DNA of 64,000 bases from a virus. Both the position numbers and the translations under genes were made by a program. Of the stretch, positions 58,547-64,000 are shown piece by piece; the stretch's first letter is position 1; each line of letters begins with the position of its first letter. The stretch is taken from positions 7,446 to 71,445 of the IMG/VR virus record IMGVR_UViG_3300046820_002141. One strand, 5' to 3'. The notes beneath the pieces are model-generated. The model was not told where the DNA came from, ran no database searches, and saw only the letters and a list, made by a program, of their open reading frames with translations.

Positions 58547-58567
58547 CAAAAACTTTTTTTATAAATA

Positions 58568-58599
58568 CTTGGAAAACGAAATAGTTATCTATATCTTTG
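58568..58599 (+). promoter_or_regulatory. Bacteroidota-type promoter of tmRNA
   Basis: CTTG-N20-TATCTTTG, followed by boxA-like GTTATTTGAAA. Confidence 0.7.
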
Positions 58600-58619
58600 T
58601 ATCACGTTATTTGAAATAT

Positions 58620-58996
58620 GGGGGTAACTTGGAATTGACTAGCATAGTTAATTATTCGGAGCATGTCGAGGCTGAACTAACCTTGTAAAACTGGTTCACA
58701 TGATAAACGACAACGTTATCAACAAACTCTCTGCAGTTGGTCTTATCCGTACTGAAGAGAATATTTCAGTAGCCTAGTCTAGGATTAGCCTACAAAACGG
58801 GTCGGCAGACACACAACCTTGGAACAGAAGTCGTAGTTGCGGTGTGGTTTCTACCCTAAAAGAAACACAACTCGTTTGTGGTTTTAAGAGCTCAAAAACC
58901 AATATTTCGGAACATTGAGAATCGATGTTGACCTAAACATGTAGGGCTTAGTAGTTAAGATGAGTAGGAAGGGGTTCGACTCCCCATACCTCCACC
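58620..58996 (+). ncRNA. ssrA: tmRNA
   Basis: 5' GGGGGTA pairs with 3' TACCTCC-A (G3:U70), GGAATTGAC D-loop region, GGGG-TTCGACT-CCCC T-arm, internal tag ORF 58709-58777. Confidence 0.92.
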
Positions 58997-59002
58997 GTAA
59001 AC

Positions 59003-60164: not shown

Positions 60165-61049
60165 TTAACCCACATAATATAAATGCCATGGTTCTGCAAT
60201 TCTCAAAGGGCCTTGTTTCTTGTAGGTAACATCAAAACCATATTTAGAAGCATTTGTTGCTACCCAATCTTTAACATCCGAATTTTGATTCCACCAAGAT
60301 GTCTCAACACTAAAAATATCGAAAGCCTTTCCGGTATGGTGTTGGGAAAATCCAGGAACTGTATTTGCTCTTTGTGTATTATCAATACCTCTTTTTTGGG
60401 CTTTATTTCCAAAATTCTTAACTTGGTCGGAATAACTTCTATAACCTGAGATAATTCCTTTAGTATTTGCTAACTTAGGAAATTTGTTTTTAGCATCATT
60501 AACTAATTTATTTATCTGTGAATTGGCTTCACTATTAACACCTCCAGAATCCTCTCTATAGTTACCTTCTTGTTCAAATTCACGTTTGATATGTTCATCA
60601 GTTATTACTATACCATAAAGATTTTTAAGTTGTGTTATTGAATTTTGAATACTTTTAGGTAATTTATCAATTTCACTAGAACTTTGTTTACTTACAGGTG
60701 TCTGAGTATTTTTAGTTTCAGTATTTTTTTCTTGTTTTTTTGGTTCTGGGTTAGATGGTATAGTCACTGGAGTGTCCTCGACACTAGGTTTTACTACCTC
60801 GGGTTTAACAGATATATTTTTGGAGGCACTAATTAAAGCCTGTAAACTATCCTTTCCAAATTTCCCGTCTTGTTCTTCTTCAGGCATATTCAGTAACTTT
60901 TGCGCCTCTCTCATATAATAACTTAATGGTTTCATTGGTTCTGAATCCTCTGTCACTAAATTTTTTTTACCAATATTTGTCTCATTTAATGGTTGTAATC
61001 CCATCAAATTTCTATAATGATTTATTTCATTAATAAATTCTTTTTTCAT
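60165..61049 (-). CDS. M15 (VanY-like) D,D-carboxypeptidase/endolysin with PG-binding-like module
   Basis: SGYRSY..Q, PGFSQHHTGKAFD, EPWH. Confidence 0.9.
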   Translation of the reverse strand: MKKEFINEINHYRNLMGLQPLNETNIGKKNLVTEDSEPMKPLSYYMREAQKLLNMPEEEQDGKFGKDSLQALISASKNISVKPEVVKPSVEDTPVTIPSNPEPKKQEKNTETKNTQTPVSKQSSSEIDKLPKSIQNSITQLKNLYGIVITDEHIKREFEQEGNYREDSGGVNSEANSQINKLVNDAKNKFPKLANTKGIISGYRSYSDQVKNFGNKAQKRGIDNTQRANTVPGFSQHHTGKAFDIFSVETSWWNQNSDVKDWVATNASKYGFDVTYKKQGPLRIAEPWHLYYVG

Positions 61050-61188
61050 TATAATGTTTTTAACTATTTCTAGATATTAAGTCTTTCAAAGCTTTCAAAC
61101 TATCCTTTCCAAATTTTCCATCTTGTTCTTCTTCAGGCATGTTCAGTAACTTTTGTGCCTCTCTCATATAATAACTTAATGGTTTCAT
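60844..61188. repeat. 92-bp near-identical direct repeat (60844-60935 and 61097-61188)
   Basis: Encodes MKPLSYYMREAQKLLNMPEEEQDGKFGKDSL in both adjacent genes. Confidence 0.9.
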
Positions 61189-61804
61189 CGGTATAATTTC
61201 AGATGATGTTACTTTACTGGGTTCATTTGATACTTTTTTATTTGTTTTTGTTGTGTCCAAATTTTGGGTTGTTACTTTTACTGTACCGTCATAGTAAGGT
61301 CTTGGGTCAACTGTTTTTCCATTCTCATATACCTCAAAATGAATATGAGGTCCTGTTGACCCTCCTCTACCAGGGTCTCCTTTACCCCCTCCTGAAATTG
61401 CAATAACATCACCTTTTTTAACATTATCACCTATTTTTTTTAGTAATTTACTATTATGACAAAATCTTGTTTTAATTTTTTTTCCGTTAATATCACCGTG
61501 GTCAACCGCAATAGTTCCTCCACATTTATTATCCGCCATTTCACTTTGAATTACAACTCCATCGGCCATAGCTAAAACTTCCGTTCCGGTTGGGTGTGCT
61601 ATATCTAAACCATGATGAAATTTTTTACGTTTTGAAATGGGGTGAATTCTATAACCAAAACGAGATGTTATTCTTCCTTTTCCTGCATTCGCGATATAAG
61701 AAAAATCTTCAGATAATATTTTTTTATCACTACTTGTTTCATTTAATGGTTCTAAACCCATCAAATTTCTATAATGATTTATTTCATTAATAAATTCTTT
61801 TTTC
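60982..61804. repeat. 66-bp near-identical direct repeat (60982-61047 and 61739-61804)
   Basis: Encodes KKEFINEINHYRNLMGL(Q/E)PLNE at the 5' end of both genes. Confidence 0.9.
61060..61764 (-). CDS. M23 peptidase with PG-binding-like module
   Basis: HHGLDI (HxxxD), FCH, STGPHIHFEV (HxH); start uncertain. Confidence 0.9.
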   Translation of the reverse strand: MMGLEPLNETSSDKKILSEDFSYIANAGKGRITSRFGYRIHPISKRKKFHHGLDIAHPTGTEVLAMADGVVIQSEMADNKCGGTIAVDHGDINGKKIKTRFCHNSKLLKKIGDNVKKGDVIAISGGGKGDPGRGGSTGPHIHFEVYENGKTVDPRPYYDGTVKVTTQNLDTTKTNKKVSNEPSKVTSSEIIPMKPLSYYMREAQKLLNMPEEEQDGKFGKDSLKALKDLISRNS

Positions 61805-61839
61805 CTAATAATATTTTTATATAAATATTATGAAAAATA

Positions 61840-61867
61840 AAAAACCCCTCATAGAGGGGTTTATTTT
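61840..61867 (-). terminator. intrinsic terminator of the RNA operon
   Basis: Minus strand aacccctc-tat-gagggggtt followed by a T-run. Confidence 0.75.
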
Positions 61868-61971
61868 TAATAGTCCATAGTGTCCACATTAACCACTACG
61901 GAAGGTTACGACCAGTTAAGTTGTGATTCTTACTTTATGTTGCCTGCAACAGGTGAAACCTACTTCTATAG

Positions 61972-62044
61972 TTGCAGTGACAGGATTCGAACCTGTGATT
62001 TTGACCTTATGAGAGTCACGAGATGGCCTCTTCTCCACACTGCG
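61972..62044 (-). tRNA. tRNA-Met(CAU), initiator-like acceptor stem
   Basis: CGCAGTG..GAGA-AGAGGCCA-TCTC-G-TGACT-CTCATAA-GGTCA-AAATC-ACAGG-TTCGAAT-CCTGT-CACTGCA-A; CCA not encoded. Confidence 0.92.
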
Positions 62045-62060
62045 ATGTAAAAGTTAAACG

Positions 62061-62845
62061 AAGCCTGAGATTATAGCTTTGATTGAGAACCTTTTGAAGG
62101 ATTATTGTTTCCCTTCGTATCCACTTCATTTTGAGAAGTATTTCTCAGTCACGGTATTTTAGGTTTACCACTCCTTGAGGTTTAAGTTACTCTCTTATTA
62201 CTTGACTCTTTCCGAGGTTGCCACCCCAGTTCATCCTTGCGGGATTAAAGGTCTTTCGTAAAACTACAGTTAGACTTGGGGTCTTTCTGTGCCACGGACT
62301 ACCCGTGACTATGTAGTGACCTTTCACCTAAACCTGATGGACACTTTTCCTTGAATTATTGTTCATAATTTAAGATTGTGTCGTGGATGTGTCAGAGTAG
62401 TGGTCCACCGTAAGCTCCATCTCCTTTTGGGTGACGAAATACTAAACTACTCCGTGAGATATCCCTATCTCCATACTTTCAGATTACTTCATAAAGAGAC
62501 CTTGGTAGGCCATCTTTAGGGGTAGTAGCGACACCACTCGTTCTCTACCTTACCTTTCGGTTTTAAGTCCCCTTCGGTATTGGAATCCGCAATATTGTAG
62601 TTGGAAGCCACATTTCTTACTTGATTCCTATGGGTTATTCTTATTGTTCTTCCGAACTCAACTTGAGAATCCACATTCCCAAGTCACAATTCCACTTTCC
62701 CTACAGTGTTACCCTCGGTACTAAAGGTCTTGTGATACCCCACTTGTGTACTCGAGCTCCATTTCTGAAGCCGCAATCTCCTTAACACGGGGGAGACCAC
62801 TTTATCCTACTTTCGTAGTTTATTTTAAAGGACCATACACGGCCC
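62061..62845 (-). ncRNA. large (~785 nt) structured non-coding RNA, GOLLD-like
   Basis: No ORF, GC higher than flanks, many stems and GNRA loops (CUAC-GAAA-GUAG, ACC-GAAA-GGU, GCUUCA-GAAA-UGGAGC, ACUUGGGAAU-GUGG-AUUCUCAAGU); phage-encoded next to a tRNA; GOLLD assignment rests on size and context. Confidence 0.72.
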
Positions 62846-62852
62846 AAAAATC

Positions 62853-62880
62853 TTTCAAAGAACTTTTCGGTTATTTCCGA
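62853..62880 (-). promoter_or_regulatory. boxB-like hairpin plus boxA-like antitermination element
   Basis: TCGG-AAATAA-CCGA followed by GTTCTTTGAAA on the minus strand. Confidence 0.65.
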
Positions 62881-62889
62881 ATTGTTTTA

Positions 62890-63120
62890 CAAATTTAAGT
62901 CAAAATTTTCAATCTGTCAAATTTTTCTTAAACTTTTTTTAAGATTCGAGACTTGTATCTTAATCGTTGTCCGTCTCAAATCCTTTACAAATATATGGTG
63001 ACTTTTTCAATCTACCAAATTTATTTGTATTTTTTTTTAGATTTAACTTTCCGAGTATCTTTCATCACCTGTAGGTGTCAAATCCTATACAAATATAGGA
63101 ATAAATACTCACCAAACAAG
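62890..63120 (-). promoter_or_regulatory. three tandem Bacteroidota-type promoters
   Basis: TTTG-N20-TAAATTTG (62921-62890), TTTG-N20-TATATTTG (63019-62988), CTTG-N19-TATATTTG (63120-63090). Confidence 0.8.
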
Positions 63121-63136
63121 CAAAATCTTAAAAAAA

Positions 63137-63472
63137 TTAAGGTCTAGTTCTTAAAAGTTGATTTTCTGCTCTCAACTTTTCATTTTCTTTTCTTAAAAAA
63201 TCAACCTCAACTTCTAATCTTGAAAGTGAAGTTGTTAATAGGATGATGTTTTCTCTCATCTTATCTTTTTCCTTGGACGATTCATCGAGTAATGTTTCTA
63301 ATTTAACAATTCTTTCTCTTAAATCATCTCTATAAAGTTCTCCATCTTTGTGTTGATTCTCTTCTTGTCTTTGTTTCAACAACATCCGTTTTTCGTAAAA
63401 TCTCCACGCCGCGTTTGATGTTAATACCGTTAACAATGTAACGAGAATTGTAACCAAGTGTTGCTCCATCAT
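63137..63472 (-). CDS. membrane-anchored coiled-coil protein (holin-like candidate)
   Basis: N-terminal hydrophobic helix LVTILVTLLTVL, then coiled coil. Confidence 0.6.
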   Translation of the reverse strand: MMEQHLVTILVTLLTVLTSNAAWRFYEKRMLLKQRQEENQHKDGELYRDDLRERIVKLETLLDESSKEKDKMRENIILLTTSLSRLEVEVDFLRKENEKLRAENQLLRTRP

Positions 63473-63572
63473 CAGTTTTTGTTAAGTCAGTTATTATATT
63501 AAGATAAATATCAAAAACAAAAAAAAAGTATTACTTGATGTCATACTTTTTTATGCATATACGAATGTTTAA

Positions 63573-64000
63573 TTAAACCGTATGGTCAATATTAACCCTA
63601 ACACAAGTTTGAGGTTGATTTTCATTCATTAAAAAATTATTAACGTATCCCATAATATTTGCCGAACCGATTGGATTTGCCGAGTGAACTACAACCAAAG
63701 GAAATTTAATTTTGGTATTTCCTTTTTTTGAACGACTCATCTCAATCCTATCAGGATTCATTTCATAAAAATAATCAACAATCCATTTGGTACAATCATA
63801 ACCTGTTTTTTCGGTTATATTATTATAATCCAATTTGTAATTTGGGGAAACATTTGTGAAATACTCATTCATGGCTGTGTCACCCAAATCGTGGTCAAAT
63901 GAAATAGTTTCAATTTCACCAAGTCCAATCTCGGTTACTTTATTAACAAATTCATCATAACTTCTAACGACAATCCAGTCATTAGATAGGGGTGTACGAA
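63573..64000 (-). CDS. cyclic-phosphate-processing receiver-domain protein (5' partial)
   Basis: Frame open to the window edge: RTP...WIVVRSYDEF...ISFDHDLG...TGYDC..W...VHSANPIG. Confidence 0.75.
   Translation of the reverse strand, partial: RTPLSNDWIVVRSYDEFVNKVTEIGLGEIETISFDHDLGDTAMNEYFTNVSPNYKLDYNNITEKTGYDCTKWIVDYFYEMNPDRIEMSRSKKGNTKIKFPLVVVHSANPIGSANIMGYVNNFLMNENQPQTCVRVNIDHTV

What the first reader, a model, noticed from the sequence alone, without database searches (positions are those of the whole stretch)
61840..63120. Phage non-coding operon built like an rRNA operon: 3 tandem promoters, boxB/boxA, ~785-nt structured RNA, tRNA, terminator
Seen: 1.3 kb with no credible ORF. On the minus strand, three near-consensus TTTG-N19/20-TAnnTTTG promoters lie ~100 bp apart. 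They are followed by a TCGG-AAATAA-CCGA hairpin and GTTCTTTGAAA, then ~785 nt of GC-enriched sequence with over a dozen visible stems (several GNRA-capped, plus a long-range GAGUAGU/ACUACUC pairing), a tRNA(CAU) 16 nt later, and a terminator. Known: GOLLD RNAs are ~800-nt, often phage-encoded and tRNA-adjacent RNAs of unknown function that were recently reported to form protein-free multimeric cages; tandem promoters plus boxA drive rRNA-level expression. Inference: the phage makes a GOLLD-like giant RNA at ribosome-like abundance using host Nus antitermination, and RNase P cleavage at the tRNA could set its 3' end.
Basis: partly seen in the sequence, partly recalled or inferred. Interest (0 to 1): 0.92.

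Follow-up and report, generated by a model that had tools for sequence, protein, structure and literature searches.

The report
Phage GOLLD RNA with rRNA-style leader
This is a gene for GOLLD, a known giant cage-forming phage RNA, and it sits behind several promoters and a short signal identical to the one that Bacteroidota bacteria place in front of their ribosomal RNA.

Summary
Window 62062-62454 (-) matches Rfam GOLLD (RF02032) over the whole model at 318.7 bits against a cut-off of 150. The 392 nt upstream (to 62846) are the variable 5' domain. So this is a true GOLLD RNA, a known family, on a fragment of a freshwater jumbo phage.

A tRNA-Met(CAU) follows after 17 nt, then an intrinsic terminator.

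What I did not find in the literature I could search is the leader:
- Three ~100-bp repeat units each carry a Bacteroidota-type promoter.
- A small hairpin follows, then GTTCTTTGAAA.
- The motif is exact in 65 of 73 related phage loci.
- It matches the 16S leader motif of sampled Bacteroidota: exact in 7 of 26 leaders, one mismatch or fewer in 20 of 26.
- The same kind of motif precedes the phages' tmRNA genes at 24 of 25 sites.
- Contigs from four river RNA libraries cover the RNA and its leader.

Nus-dependent antitermination, rRNA-like abundance and RNase P 3'-end formation remain inferences. The one Lactobacillales GOLLD locus I examined has no such leader.

Verdict: a new member of a known family, with a leader worth testing.

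The parts
63090..63120 (-). Promoter-like site 1 (CTTG-N19-TATATTTG), in repeat unit 1
   Evidence: Read. It fits TTG-N17-21-TAnnTTTG (-7 box ending 243 nt before 62846) but not the strict TTTG form. Repeat family D2.
63040..63084 (-). Unit-1 hairpin with an 8-bp stem. Its loop motif AGGnnATGAAAGAtACTCG recurs in related loci.
   Evidence: Fold: -7.3 kcal/mol, z -1.55, which is weak on its own. The loop motif is seen in relatives. Function unknown.
62988..63019 (-). Promoter-like site 2 (TTTG-N20-TATATTTG), in repeat unit 2
62941..62984 (-). Unit-2 hairpin (12-bp stem)
   Evidence: -14.3 kcal/mol, z -5.0, 0 of 200 shuffles fold as well.
62890..62921 (-). Promoter-like site 3 (TTTG-N20-TAAATTTG), nearest to GOLLD
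   Evidence: Homologous promoter blocks are seen in relatives.
62866..62881 (-). Small leader hairpin, boxB-like by position
   Evidence: In relatives the stem changes while the hairpin is kept (TCGG/CCGA, CAGG/CCTG, CTTGG/CCAAG, TCTCA/TGAGA). A hairpin ends within 9 nt of the motif in 33 of 44 distinct leaders; shuffles give a mean of 4.4 and a maximum of 10.
62853..62863 (-). GTTCTTTGAAA, boxA-type motif
   Evidence: Only exact copy in the window. Exact in 65 of 73 related leaders. Matches the Bacteroidota 16S leader motif. 86 of 94 exact copies in 1.2 Mb of related phage DNA are GOLLD leaders.
62455..62846 (-). GOLLD 5' domain (variable half)
   Evidence: Full-length homology in 99 of 119 loci starts here. 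21 helices fall in this half, most with compensatory pairs. MFE z -2.73 when folded together with the leader.
62062..62454 (-). GOLLD 3' domain (conserved half)
   Evidence: Rfam RF02032, 318.7 bits, gathering score 150, E 2e-90, model 1-416 of 416.
61971..62044 (-). tRNA-Met (anticodon CAU) with a C1:A72 mismatch, 17 nt after GOLLD
   Evidence: ARAGORN. Rfam tRNA 56.4 bits, with the first acceptor pair marked non-standard.
61863..61970 (-). 108-nt spacer between tRNA and terminator. It holds an 18-nt near-repeat of the tRNA anticodon arm.
   Evidence: Repeat D5. No significant fold (z -0.79). In the closest relatives the terminator lies about 25 nt after the tRNA.
61842..61862 (-). Intrinsic terminator (9-bp stem, 5 G-C pairs, T-run)

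Best explanation
The region is one non-coding transcription unit of a freshwater jumbo phage whose host is probably a member of Bacteroidota.

**Layout.** Three tandem Bacteroidota-type promoters drive a short leader, a 785-nt GOLLD RNA, a tRNA-Met and an intrinsic terminator. GOLLD is the known giant ornate phage RNA that assembles without protein into a 14-subunit cage.

**The leader.** It mimics the host's rRNA operon leader: a small hairpin followed by the phylum's own boxA sequence.

**Most likely mechanism (inferred).**
- The nascent boxA recruits host NusB and S10 and converts RNA polymerase into the rRNA-type antitermination complex.
- This protects a long untranslated transcript from Rho.
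- It speeds elongation and may help the ornate RNA fold as it is made.
- The tRNA is then released by RNase P and the leader is trimmed off.

**Shown:** GOLLD membership; conservation and covariation of the RNA; identity of the motif with Bacteroidota rRNA leaders; its recurrence before the phages' tmRNA genes; presence of the RNA and its leader in RNA libraries.

**Inferred:** promoter use, Nus binding, antitermination, processing and abundance.

**My odds:** GOLLD 0.97; one transcription unit including the tRNA 0.8; the motif acts as a boxA on the transcript 0.55-0.6.
For: **GOLLD identity**
- Rfam RF02032 at 318.7 bits against a cut-off of 150, whole model.
- No other family reaches its cut-off in the region.

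**Family and structure**
- 99 of 119 IMG/VR loci fetched with a 3'-domain pattern hold a full-length homologue (70-95% identity), giving 73 distinct sequences.
- 123 of 218 consensus pairs show compensatory change, against 35-55 in slid controls.

**Leader**
- GTTCTTTGAAA is exact in 65 of 73 leaders and has one mismatch or fewer in 67.
- Five of the other six carry GTTCTTTAACA or GTTCTTTAAAT at the same place.
- A hairpin lies before the motif in 33 of 44 distinct leaders.
- Sense-strand promoter sites within 500 nt upstream: one or more in 72 of 72 loci, two or more in 62, three or more in 21. The antisense control gives one site in 5 of 72, and GOLLD bodies give none in 74.

**Host match**
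- In 16S loci from 81 sampled genomes of the phylum of a Chitinophagaceae MAG, the motif lies 82-312 nt before the 16S start. It is exact in 7 of 26 leaders and has one mismatch or fewer in 20 of 26.
- GTTCTTTGACA-like copies lie in 24 of 30 16S-23S spacers.
- 5 of 120 genome hits to a 14-mer version lie 128-180 nt before a 16S gene.
- Published boxA forms are close: B. subtilis AUGAUCUUUGAAA after a small hairpin, E. coli UGCUCUUUAACA (PMC13753749, passages), and GYTCTTTAANA (PMC5725501, passages).

**Not tied to GOLLD**
- 24 of 25 tmRNA-5'-like sites in these phages have a boxA-type motif 14-31 nt upstream. This includes the window's own tmRNA, with the motif at 58606-58616.
- 86 of 94 exact copies in 1.2 Mb are GOLLD leaders and 4 are tmRNA leaders.

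**RNA libraries**
- Contigs of four river RNA libraries cover 62083-62839.
- One contig (X19 record 31, 62798-62904) bridges the window's own leader-body junction.
- One contig reaches 63060 (X18 record 23).

**Phage context:** portal, large terminase and major head protein; the record is a virus fragment estimated at 24% complete.
Against: - No experiment or raw read shows a transcription start, Nus binding or antitermination.
- Contigs cannot give strand, ends or level.
- The motif never varies, so covariation cannot say whether it acts as RNA or as DNA.
- RNAalifold can pair it with an invariant UCAAGGAG in the 3' domain.
- The small hairpin is not significant alone (z -0.73).
- In host 16S leaders a hairpin before the motif is not clearly above chance: 12 of 18, shuffle mean 6.1, shuffle maximum 12.
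- The window's tmRNA copy of the motif has A at the fourth position. A change of that position (together with the sixth) abolishes function in E. coli (PMC5725501, passage). One-mismatch copies occur at chance level in the window: 5 found, 4.95 expected.
- The one Lactobacillales GOLLD locus found (1 of 151 genomes) has no such motif within 1500 nt. LR756502 has none with one mismatch or fewer, and L061 has lost it. GOLLD therefore does not need it.
- All related loci were fetched with a pattern taken from this window's own 3' domain, so they form one clade.
Confidence: 0.7

Rival explanations
1. The GTTCTTTGAAA motif is part of the folded GOLLD RNA. For example, it could pair with the invariant UCAAGGAG of the 3' domain to close the molecule, rather than act as a transcription signal.
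For: RNAalifold on 67 sequences predicts an 8-pair helix between 62856-62862 and 62171-62178, 99% paired. Both partners are invariant, so the pairing cannot be excluded by covariation.
Against: - There are no compensatory changes (0 of 8 pairs).
- The same motif family precedes unrelated tmRNA genes at 24 of 25 sites and host 16S genes.
- Its distance to the GOLLD body varies from 6 to about 109 nt.
- The AAGGAG-type element is also kept in a Lactobacillales GOLLD that has no such motif upstream.
Confidence: 0.08
2. The motif and the repeats act at the DNA level. They could be an operator or binding site for a phage or host transcription factor, or part of an extended promoter. The likeness to boxA would then reflect shared promoter-proximal regulation of stable-RNA genes, not Nus loading on RNA.
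For: The motif lies only about 20 nt after the predicted start of promoter 3 and directly after -7 boxes at tmRNA genes. Its invariance fits a protein-binding DNA site as well as an RNA site.
Against: In host genomes the same motif also lies in 24 of 30 16S-23S spacers, far from any promoter. That is the classic position of a boxA acting on the transcript. In LR745206 it lies between a tRNA and GOLLD with no promoter-like site between them.
Confidence: 0.15
3. The three promoter-like repeats are not all promoters. Units 1 and 2 may be duplicated remnants or leader RNA elements, with only the proximal promoter active.
For: - Site 1 lacks the TTTG -33 element at the usual spacing.
- Units 1 and 2 carry their own hairpins and no boxA.
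- Ten of 72 relatives have a single site.
Against: - 62 of 72 relatives keep two or more sense-strand sites, against a near-empty antisense control.
- RNA-library contigs extend upstream of promoter 3 to 63015, 63041 and 63060, which needs a start further upstream.
Confidence: 0.25
4. The window's copy is a decaying GOLLD gene, because it lacks the 50-100-nt stem-loop that all other aligned relatives carry between the motif and the body.
For: The window is the only one of 67 aligned sequences without this stem-loop.
Against: - The body is intact, with the full Rfam model at a score as high as its relatives.
- No helix of the consensus body is lost in the window (gaps only in the leader helices).
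- An RNA-library contig bridges exactly this short junction (X19 record 31).
Confidence: 0.05

Closest known systems
GOLLD RNA (Rfam RF02032). The env-38 example was solved by cryo-EM as a 14-mer cage (PMC12286853 / bioRxiv 10.1101/2024.12.08.627333, passages read).
   Same: - Full match to the family model.
- About 800 nt, with a conserved 3' half and a variable 5' half.
- Phage-borne, in an aquatic metagenome.
- Next to a tRNA-Met, as reported for env-38.
   Different: - 785 nt against 833 nt.
- It lacks the stem-loop that its own clade carries just before the body.
- Cage formation was not tested.
- The published passages I read do not mention promoters or a boxA leader.
rRNA operon leader of bacteria: tandem promoters, boxB hairpin, boxA, NusB-S10-NusA-NusG-SuhB antitermination complex (PMC10250234 abstract; PMC13753749 and PMC5725501 passages)
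   Same: - Several promoters in tandem.
- A small promoter-proximal hairpin directly followed by the phylum's boxA sequence.
- A long untranslated structured RNA followed by a tRNA.
   Different: - It is a phage gene and no rRNA is present.
- No leader-trailer helix and no boxC were identified.
- Factor binding is untested.
- The spacing to the mature RNA is only 6 nt here.
Lambda nut sites (boxA plus boxB, N protein) and boxA before CRISPR arrays and suhB (PMC2800207 abstract; PMC13753749 passage)
   Same: A phage or non-rRNA transcript uses a boxA to load Nus factors, so that a long or untranslated RNA escapes termination.
   Different: - The order here is hairpin then boxA, as in rrn. In lambda nut it is boxA then boxB (recalled).
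- No N-like protein was looked for.
- The host phylum is Bacteroidota, where this system has not been studied as far as my searches show.
ROOL RNA
   Same: Large ornate phage RNA near tRNAs that also forms a cage. It is reported to be as abundant as 16S rRNA in one strain (passage).
   Different: Unrelated sequence and fold. There was no Rfam ROOL match here.

Membership tests
GOLLD RNA (RF02032) | Score above the curated gathering threshold of the family covariance model over its full length | tested here: met
   318.7 bits against 150, model 1-416 of 416, E 2e-90.
GOLLD RNA (RF02032) | Conserved 3' domain whose helices are supported by covariation | tested here: met
   16 helices fall in 62061-62454. 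Most have compensatory pairs and 91-100% of cells paired in 67 relatives.
GOLLD RNA (RF02032) | Large, less conserved, highly structured 5' domain, giving a total near 800 nt | tested here: met
   392 nt with 21 helices, of which 19 have at least one compensatory pair. The total is 785 nt. The helices could not be mapped onto the published P1-P13 numbering, because no full-length reference sequence was on hand.
GOLLD RNA (RF02032) | Phage or prophage context, often beside tRNAs | tested here: met
   Portal, terminase and major head genes in the window. tRNA-Met lies 17 nt downstream and a tmRNA 3 kb away.
GOLLD RNA (RF02032) | Protein-free homo-oligomeric cage | not testable with these tools
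   Needs in-vitro transcription with cryo-EM or mass photometry.
rrn-type antitermination leader (boxB-boxA) | boxA sequence matching that of the host's rRNA operons | tested here: met
   The same 11-mer is exact in 7 of 26 sampled Bacteroidota 16S leaders and has one mismatch or fewer in 20 of 26. Near-copies lie in 24 of 30 spacers. It fits GYTCTTTAANA at 10 of 11 positions (PMC5725501).
rrn-type antitermination leader (boxB-boxA) | Located on the transcript between promoter and mature RNA, preceded by a hairpin | tested here: inconclusive
   The position fits the predicted promoters, and the hairpin is conserved (33 of 44). RNA-library contigs include it. No transcription start was mapped.
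rrn-type antitermination leader (boxB-boxA) | Binds NusB-S10 and makes RNA polymerase resistant to Rho | not testable with these tools
   Needs binding assays and terminator read-through reporters.
rrn-type antitermination leader (boxB-boxA) | boxC element and leader-trailer helix for RNase III | not tested
   I only noted by eye a 7-nt complementarity between the leader (AAAAGUU) and the trailer after GOLLD (AACUUUU). It was not examined in relatives.

The most novel reading that the evidence does not exclude
Freshwater Bacteroidota jumbo phages transcribe their stable RNAs (GOLLD, tmRNA and some tRNAs) from promoters followed by the host's own boxA. If so, they borrow the rRNA antitermination and RNA-chaperone complex to make and fold a cage-forming RNA. 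GOLLD would then be produced like an rRNA: strongly, resistant to Rho, and folded while it is transcribed. That would be the first clue to its biogenesis and a route to studying its function in vivo.
Probability: 0.5. Interest if true: 0.65.

Novelty: new member of a known kind. Interest (0 to 1): 0.5.

Why it matters
GOLLD has a solved cage structure but no known function and no described biogenesis.

A leader that copies the host rRNA leader is conserved in over a hundred phage loci and shared with the phages' tmRNA genes. It suggests that GOLLD is made as a stable RNA by Nus-modified polymerase.

This yields concrete tests: NusB-S10 binding, Rho dependence and folding yield. It also gives a natural expression cassette for work in Bacteroidota, and it extends boxA use by phages beyond the lambdoid phages. 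The RNA itself is an ordinary member of its family.

Tried and rejected
**Other RNA families.** An rRNA fragment, intron or RNase P RNA is rejected. Nothing but GOLLD, tRNA and tmRNA reaches a gathering score in the window. In the region at E up to 1, only three weak chance-level hits appear: rimP leader 25.8 bits against 47, Phe leader, and Plastid-ycf2.

**Cultured phages.** The phage collection gave only two uncultured huge phages (635 and 642 kb) and a tRNA match. Both huge phages carry GOLLD.

**Generality.** A search of 151 Lactobacillales genomes gave one GOLLD. It has a tRNA-Ser upstream and no boxA-like motif with two mismatches or fewer in 1500 nt. I therefore do not claim the leader for the whole family.

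**14-mer genome scan.** Only 5 of 120 hits lie before a 16S gene. This is a weak test by itself, so I followed it with direct 16S loci.

**Single-sequence folds.** The small hairpin, the unit-1 hairpin and the 108-nt spacer are not significant.

**RNA runs.**
- No contig was laid on 60500-61903 or on 63074-63541, and next to none on the tRNA.
- Summed word depths were about 10^3-10^4 on the body, 170-480 on 62840-62956 and 11-27 on 62957-63073. They mix relatives and are not a measure of level.
- The joint that skips 61970-62040 (one contig) probably reflects a relative with another tRNA sequence.
- Two contigs (62820-62911 in X15 and X16) have only 27 letters on the body side of the junction and were not counted as bridging.

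**Literature.**
- GOLLD with boxA: 0 papers.
- GOLLD with antitermination: 4 papers. I checked three by passages; the fourth is the preprint of one of them. None links the two.
- GOLLD with jumbo or huge phages: none among the 12 listed of 274.
- The original GOLLD paper (Nature 2009) is not held, and supplements are closed. A mention of the leader there, or in the alignment files of the cryo-EM paper, cannot be excluded.

**Rows left out.**
- 20 of 119 loci cut by a locus end.
- Duplicates collapsed to 73 bodies plus the window.
- L068, with 8 nt upstream, and L008, with 458 nt upstream.
- 4 of 30 16S loci with under 200 nt upstream.
- 7 representatives without a one-mismatch-or-better motif, or without upstream sequence, from alignment A2.
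Full report
**What is there.** On the minus strand the region reads as follows:
- three ~100-bp repeat units (63140-62842);
- a short leader;
- 785 nt of G+C-enriched sequence (62846-62062);
- a tRNA-Met(CAU) (62044-61971);
- a 108-nt spacer;
- an intrinsic terminator (61862-61842).

No ORF longer than 66 aa overlaps 61765-63136 on either strand. G+C is 0.40-0.45 inside against 0.26-0.33 outside. Searches confirm the tRNA and the terminator.

**Identity of the RNA.** A scan of the whole window against Rfam 15 gives three matches at or above the curated cut-offs:
- GOLLD (RF02032) at 62062-62454 (-), 318.7 bits against 150, E 2e-90, covering model positions 1-416 of 416;
- a tmRNA at 58620-58997 (+);
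- the tRNA.

The Rfam model covers only the conserved 3' half of GOLLD. The 392 nt upstream are therefore the variable 5' half. Published descriptions fit (passages of 10.1101/2024.12.08.627333 and PMC12286853; PMC12990946):
- GOLLD RNAs often exceed 800 nt.
- They are encoded in phages and prophages, often near tRNAs.
- The env-38 example is 833 nt, was found downstream of a Met-tRNA in an aquatic metagenome, and forms a closed 14-mer cage.

**Context.** The window is the last 64 kb of a 71,445-bp IMG/VR virus record that CheckV estimates at 24% complete. That implies a genome of roughly 300 kb. Portal, large terminase and major head protein are encoded in the window. The only matches in the GenBank phage collection are two uncultured phages of 635 and 642 kb, and both carry GOLLD. 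DNA runs that hold the stretch are labelled freshwater, lake or river.

- Of these, 99 hold a full-length homologue of 62061-62846 at 69-95% identity. That gives 73 distinct sequences. The other 20 are cut by locus ends.
- I aligned 67 sequences from the leader motif to the 3' end and folded the alignment with RNAalifold.
- This gave 37 helices of three or more pairs, 21 of them in the 5' half.
- 123 of 218 pairs show compensatory changes, and helices have 87-100% of cells paired.
- When the 3' partners are slid by 1-3 columns, 35-55 pairs appear compensatory and 38-44% of cells pair.
- The GAGUAGU/ACUACUC pairing is the outer helix of the first Rfam hairpin, not a long-range contact.

**The leader.**
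- *Promoters.* The strict Bacteroidota pattern TTTG-N17-21-TAnnTTTG hits 62890-62921 and 62988-63019. The third site, 63090-63120, has CTTG at a spacing of 19. With the looser TTG form, every one of 72 representatives with 500 nt of upstream sequence has at least one sense-strand site; 62 have two or more and 21 have three or more. On the antisense strand, 5 of 72 have one site. None of 74 GOLLD bodies has any.
- *Hairpin.* After the proximal promoter comes a conserved TAAAACAA, then a small hairpin. Its stem differs between loci (TCGG/CCGA, CAGG/CCTG, CTTGG/CCAAG, TCTCA/TGAGA). A hairpin ends within 9 nt of the motif in 33 of 44 distinct leaders, against a shuffle mean of 4.4 and a maximum of 10.
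- *Motif.* GTTCTTTGAAA is exact in 65 of 73 leaders and has one mismatch or fewer in 67. Five of the remaining six have GTTCTTTAACA or GTTCTTTAAAT at the same place, and one (L061) has lost it.
- *Where the motif occurs.* In 1.2 Mb of these loci there are 94 exact copies on both strands. Of these, 86 are GOLLD leaders.

**Is the motif a boxA?** Published boxA forms are UGCUCUUUAACA (E. coli rrn) and AUGAUCUUUGAAA (B. subtilis rrn, directly after a small hairpin and bound by NusB) (PMC13753749, passages). GYTCTTTAANA is the gamma-proteobacterial consensus (PMC5725501, passages).

I tested the host phylum directly. From a Chitinophagaceae MAG hit I obtained a genome handle and sampled 81 genomes of its phylum for 16S rRNA. 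Forty-two had a match, and 30 loci were returned. The results:
- Of 26 leaders with at least 200 nt, 7 carry the exact 11-mer and 20 carry it with one mismatch or fewer, 82-312 nt before the 16S start.
- Chance expectation for one mismatch or fewer in 400 nt is about 0.003 per leader (my arithmetic).
- 24 of 30 16S-23S spacers carry GTTCTTTGACA or a near-copy.
- In one leader (L251) the order is -7 box, hairpin, motif, exactly as before GOLLD.

The phage leader therefore copies the Bacteroidota rRNA leader signal. A hairpin before the motif in host leaders is not clearly above chance: 12 of 18, shuffle mean 6.1, shuffle maximum 12.

**Independent support from the tmRNA genes.**
- Four of the eight exact copies outside GOLLD leaders lie 3-19 nt before tmRNA genes. 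Rfam confirmed a tmRNA in all 6 loci tested.
- The window's own tmRNA has a TATCTTTG box, then GTTATTTGAAA at 58606-58616, then the tmRNA 3 nt later.
- Across all loci, 24 of 25 distinct tmRNA-5'-like sites have a motif of this family within 14-31 nt upstream. Three are exact, 13 have one mismatch or fewer, and 24 have two or fewer. The one without is probably a false site.
- The variants (GTTCTTTGATA, GTTCTTTAACA, GTTATTTGACA, GTTCATTGAAA) resemble those seen in host leaders and spacers.

A signal shared by two unrelated stable-RNA genes and by host rRNA operons is more simply a transcription signal than a part of the GOLLD fold. RNAalifold's pairing of the motif with an invariant UCAAGGAG in the 3' domain has no covariation. 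That element is also kept in a Lactobacillales GOLLD that has no such motif upstream.

**3' end.**
- A tRNA-Met(CAU) follows GOLLD at +9 to +23 nt in 14 of 74 representatives, including the window.
- It lies 158-284 nt upstream in 5.
- None was found within 400 nt downstream or 700 nt upstream in the other 55.
- Where no tRNA follows, a hairpin with a T-run is usually visible within about 100 nt. My strict detector called only some of them.

RNase P could trim the 3' side here, but it is not the general rule. The window's tRNA differs in sequence from that of its 92-95% relatives.

**A peculiarity of this copy.** In 66 of 67 aligned sequences a 50-100-nt stem-loop lies between the motif and the body. 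Its conserved flanks are ATTATCC..TTCAG and CTGATAAA.GATA. The window alone lacks it, so the motif ends 6 nt before the body. The short form is not an assembly error: an RNA-library contig (X19 record 31, 62798-62904) bridges it with 49 letters on each side.

**Expression.** Six river RNA libraries hold 28-37% of the sampled words. I laid four of them, from four studies, on 60500-64000.
- Contigs cover 62083-62839, and many are 99% or more alike (67-93 pieces per run).
- Contigs also cover the leader, and upstream parts to 63015, 63041 and 63060.
- Loose ends just upstream of 62846 spell the relatives' extra stem-loop joined to the body.

Contigs cannot show strand, ends or level, so this shows presence in RNA libraries only. 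It is compatible with starts upstream of promoter 3.

**Limits of generality.**
- Of 151 sampled Lactobacillales genomes, one has GOLLD. It follows a tRNA-Ser and has no boxA-like motif within 1500 nt.
- LR745206 has hairpin plus motif between a tRNA and GOLLD. LR756502 has no copy with one mismatch or fewer.

The leader belongs to this freshwater clade, not to GOLLD as such.

**Novelty.**
- The RNA family, its phage context and its tRNA-Met neighbour are known.
- In the held library no paper has both GOLLD and boxA.
- The four papers with GOLLD and antitermination do not connect them.
- I could not read the 2009 discovery paper or any supplement.

I file the locus as a new member of a known kind. 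The rRNA-type leader, shared with phage tmRNA genes, is the part worth an experiment.

**Verdict.**
- Observation: confirmed.
- Interpretation: partly supported.
- GOLLD identity: about 0.97.
- The motif functions as a boxA: about 0.55-0.6.
- Interest: 0.5.

Noticed in passing
window 58560-58997 (+): The phage tmRNA gene (Rfam 93.6 bits) has a TATCTTTG -7 box, then GTTATTTGAAA at 58606-58616, 3 nt before its 5' end. In related phage loci, 24 of 25 tmRNA-5'-like sites have a boxA-type motif 14-31 nt upstream.
   Followed up: yes
window 62847-62852, compared with L101, L008, L075 and 63 others: The window alone lacks the 50-100-nt stem-loop that lies between the leader motif and the GOLLD body in 66 of 67 aligned relatives. 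An RNA-library contig confirms the short form.
   Followed up: partly
window 63040-63084 (-) and many related loci: The hairpin of repeat unit 1 has a loop motif AGGnnATGAAAGAtACTCG that is kept in distant loci. In at least nine of the printed leaders it sits directly before the boxA motif in place of the small hairpin. It matches no Rfam family and its function is unknown.
   Followed up: partly
window 61863-62044 (-): The tRNA-Met(CAU) has a C1:A72 mismatch but an anticodon stem without three G-C pairs. Its sequence differs from the tRNA-Met of the 92-95% identical relatives. A 108-nt spacer that the closest relatives lack follows it, and the spacer holds an 18-nt near-repeat of the tRNA anticodon arm.
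   Followed up: partly
window 62171-62178 (-): An invariant UCAAGGAG, single-stranded in the Rfam consensus and Shine-Dalgarno-like, is complementary to the leader motif UUCUUUGA. It could be chance or a real contact. No covariation test is possible.
   Followed up: partly
L007 minus strand around 2102; L119, L069, L073 upstream of tRNA-Met; L002 1285: Further promoter plus boxA-type units precede a region of unknown content in L007. They also precede tRNA genes in several loci, where GTTCTTAAAAA or GTTCTTTGAAT lies just before a tRNA. This suggests that the signal serves several stable-RNA genes of these phages.
   Followed up: partly
window 61807-61896 (-): A sub-threshold Rfam hit to the gammaproteobacterial rimP leader (25.8 bits against 47, E 0.14) overlaps the terminator. 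I read it as chance.
   Followed up: no
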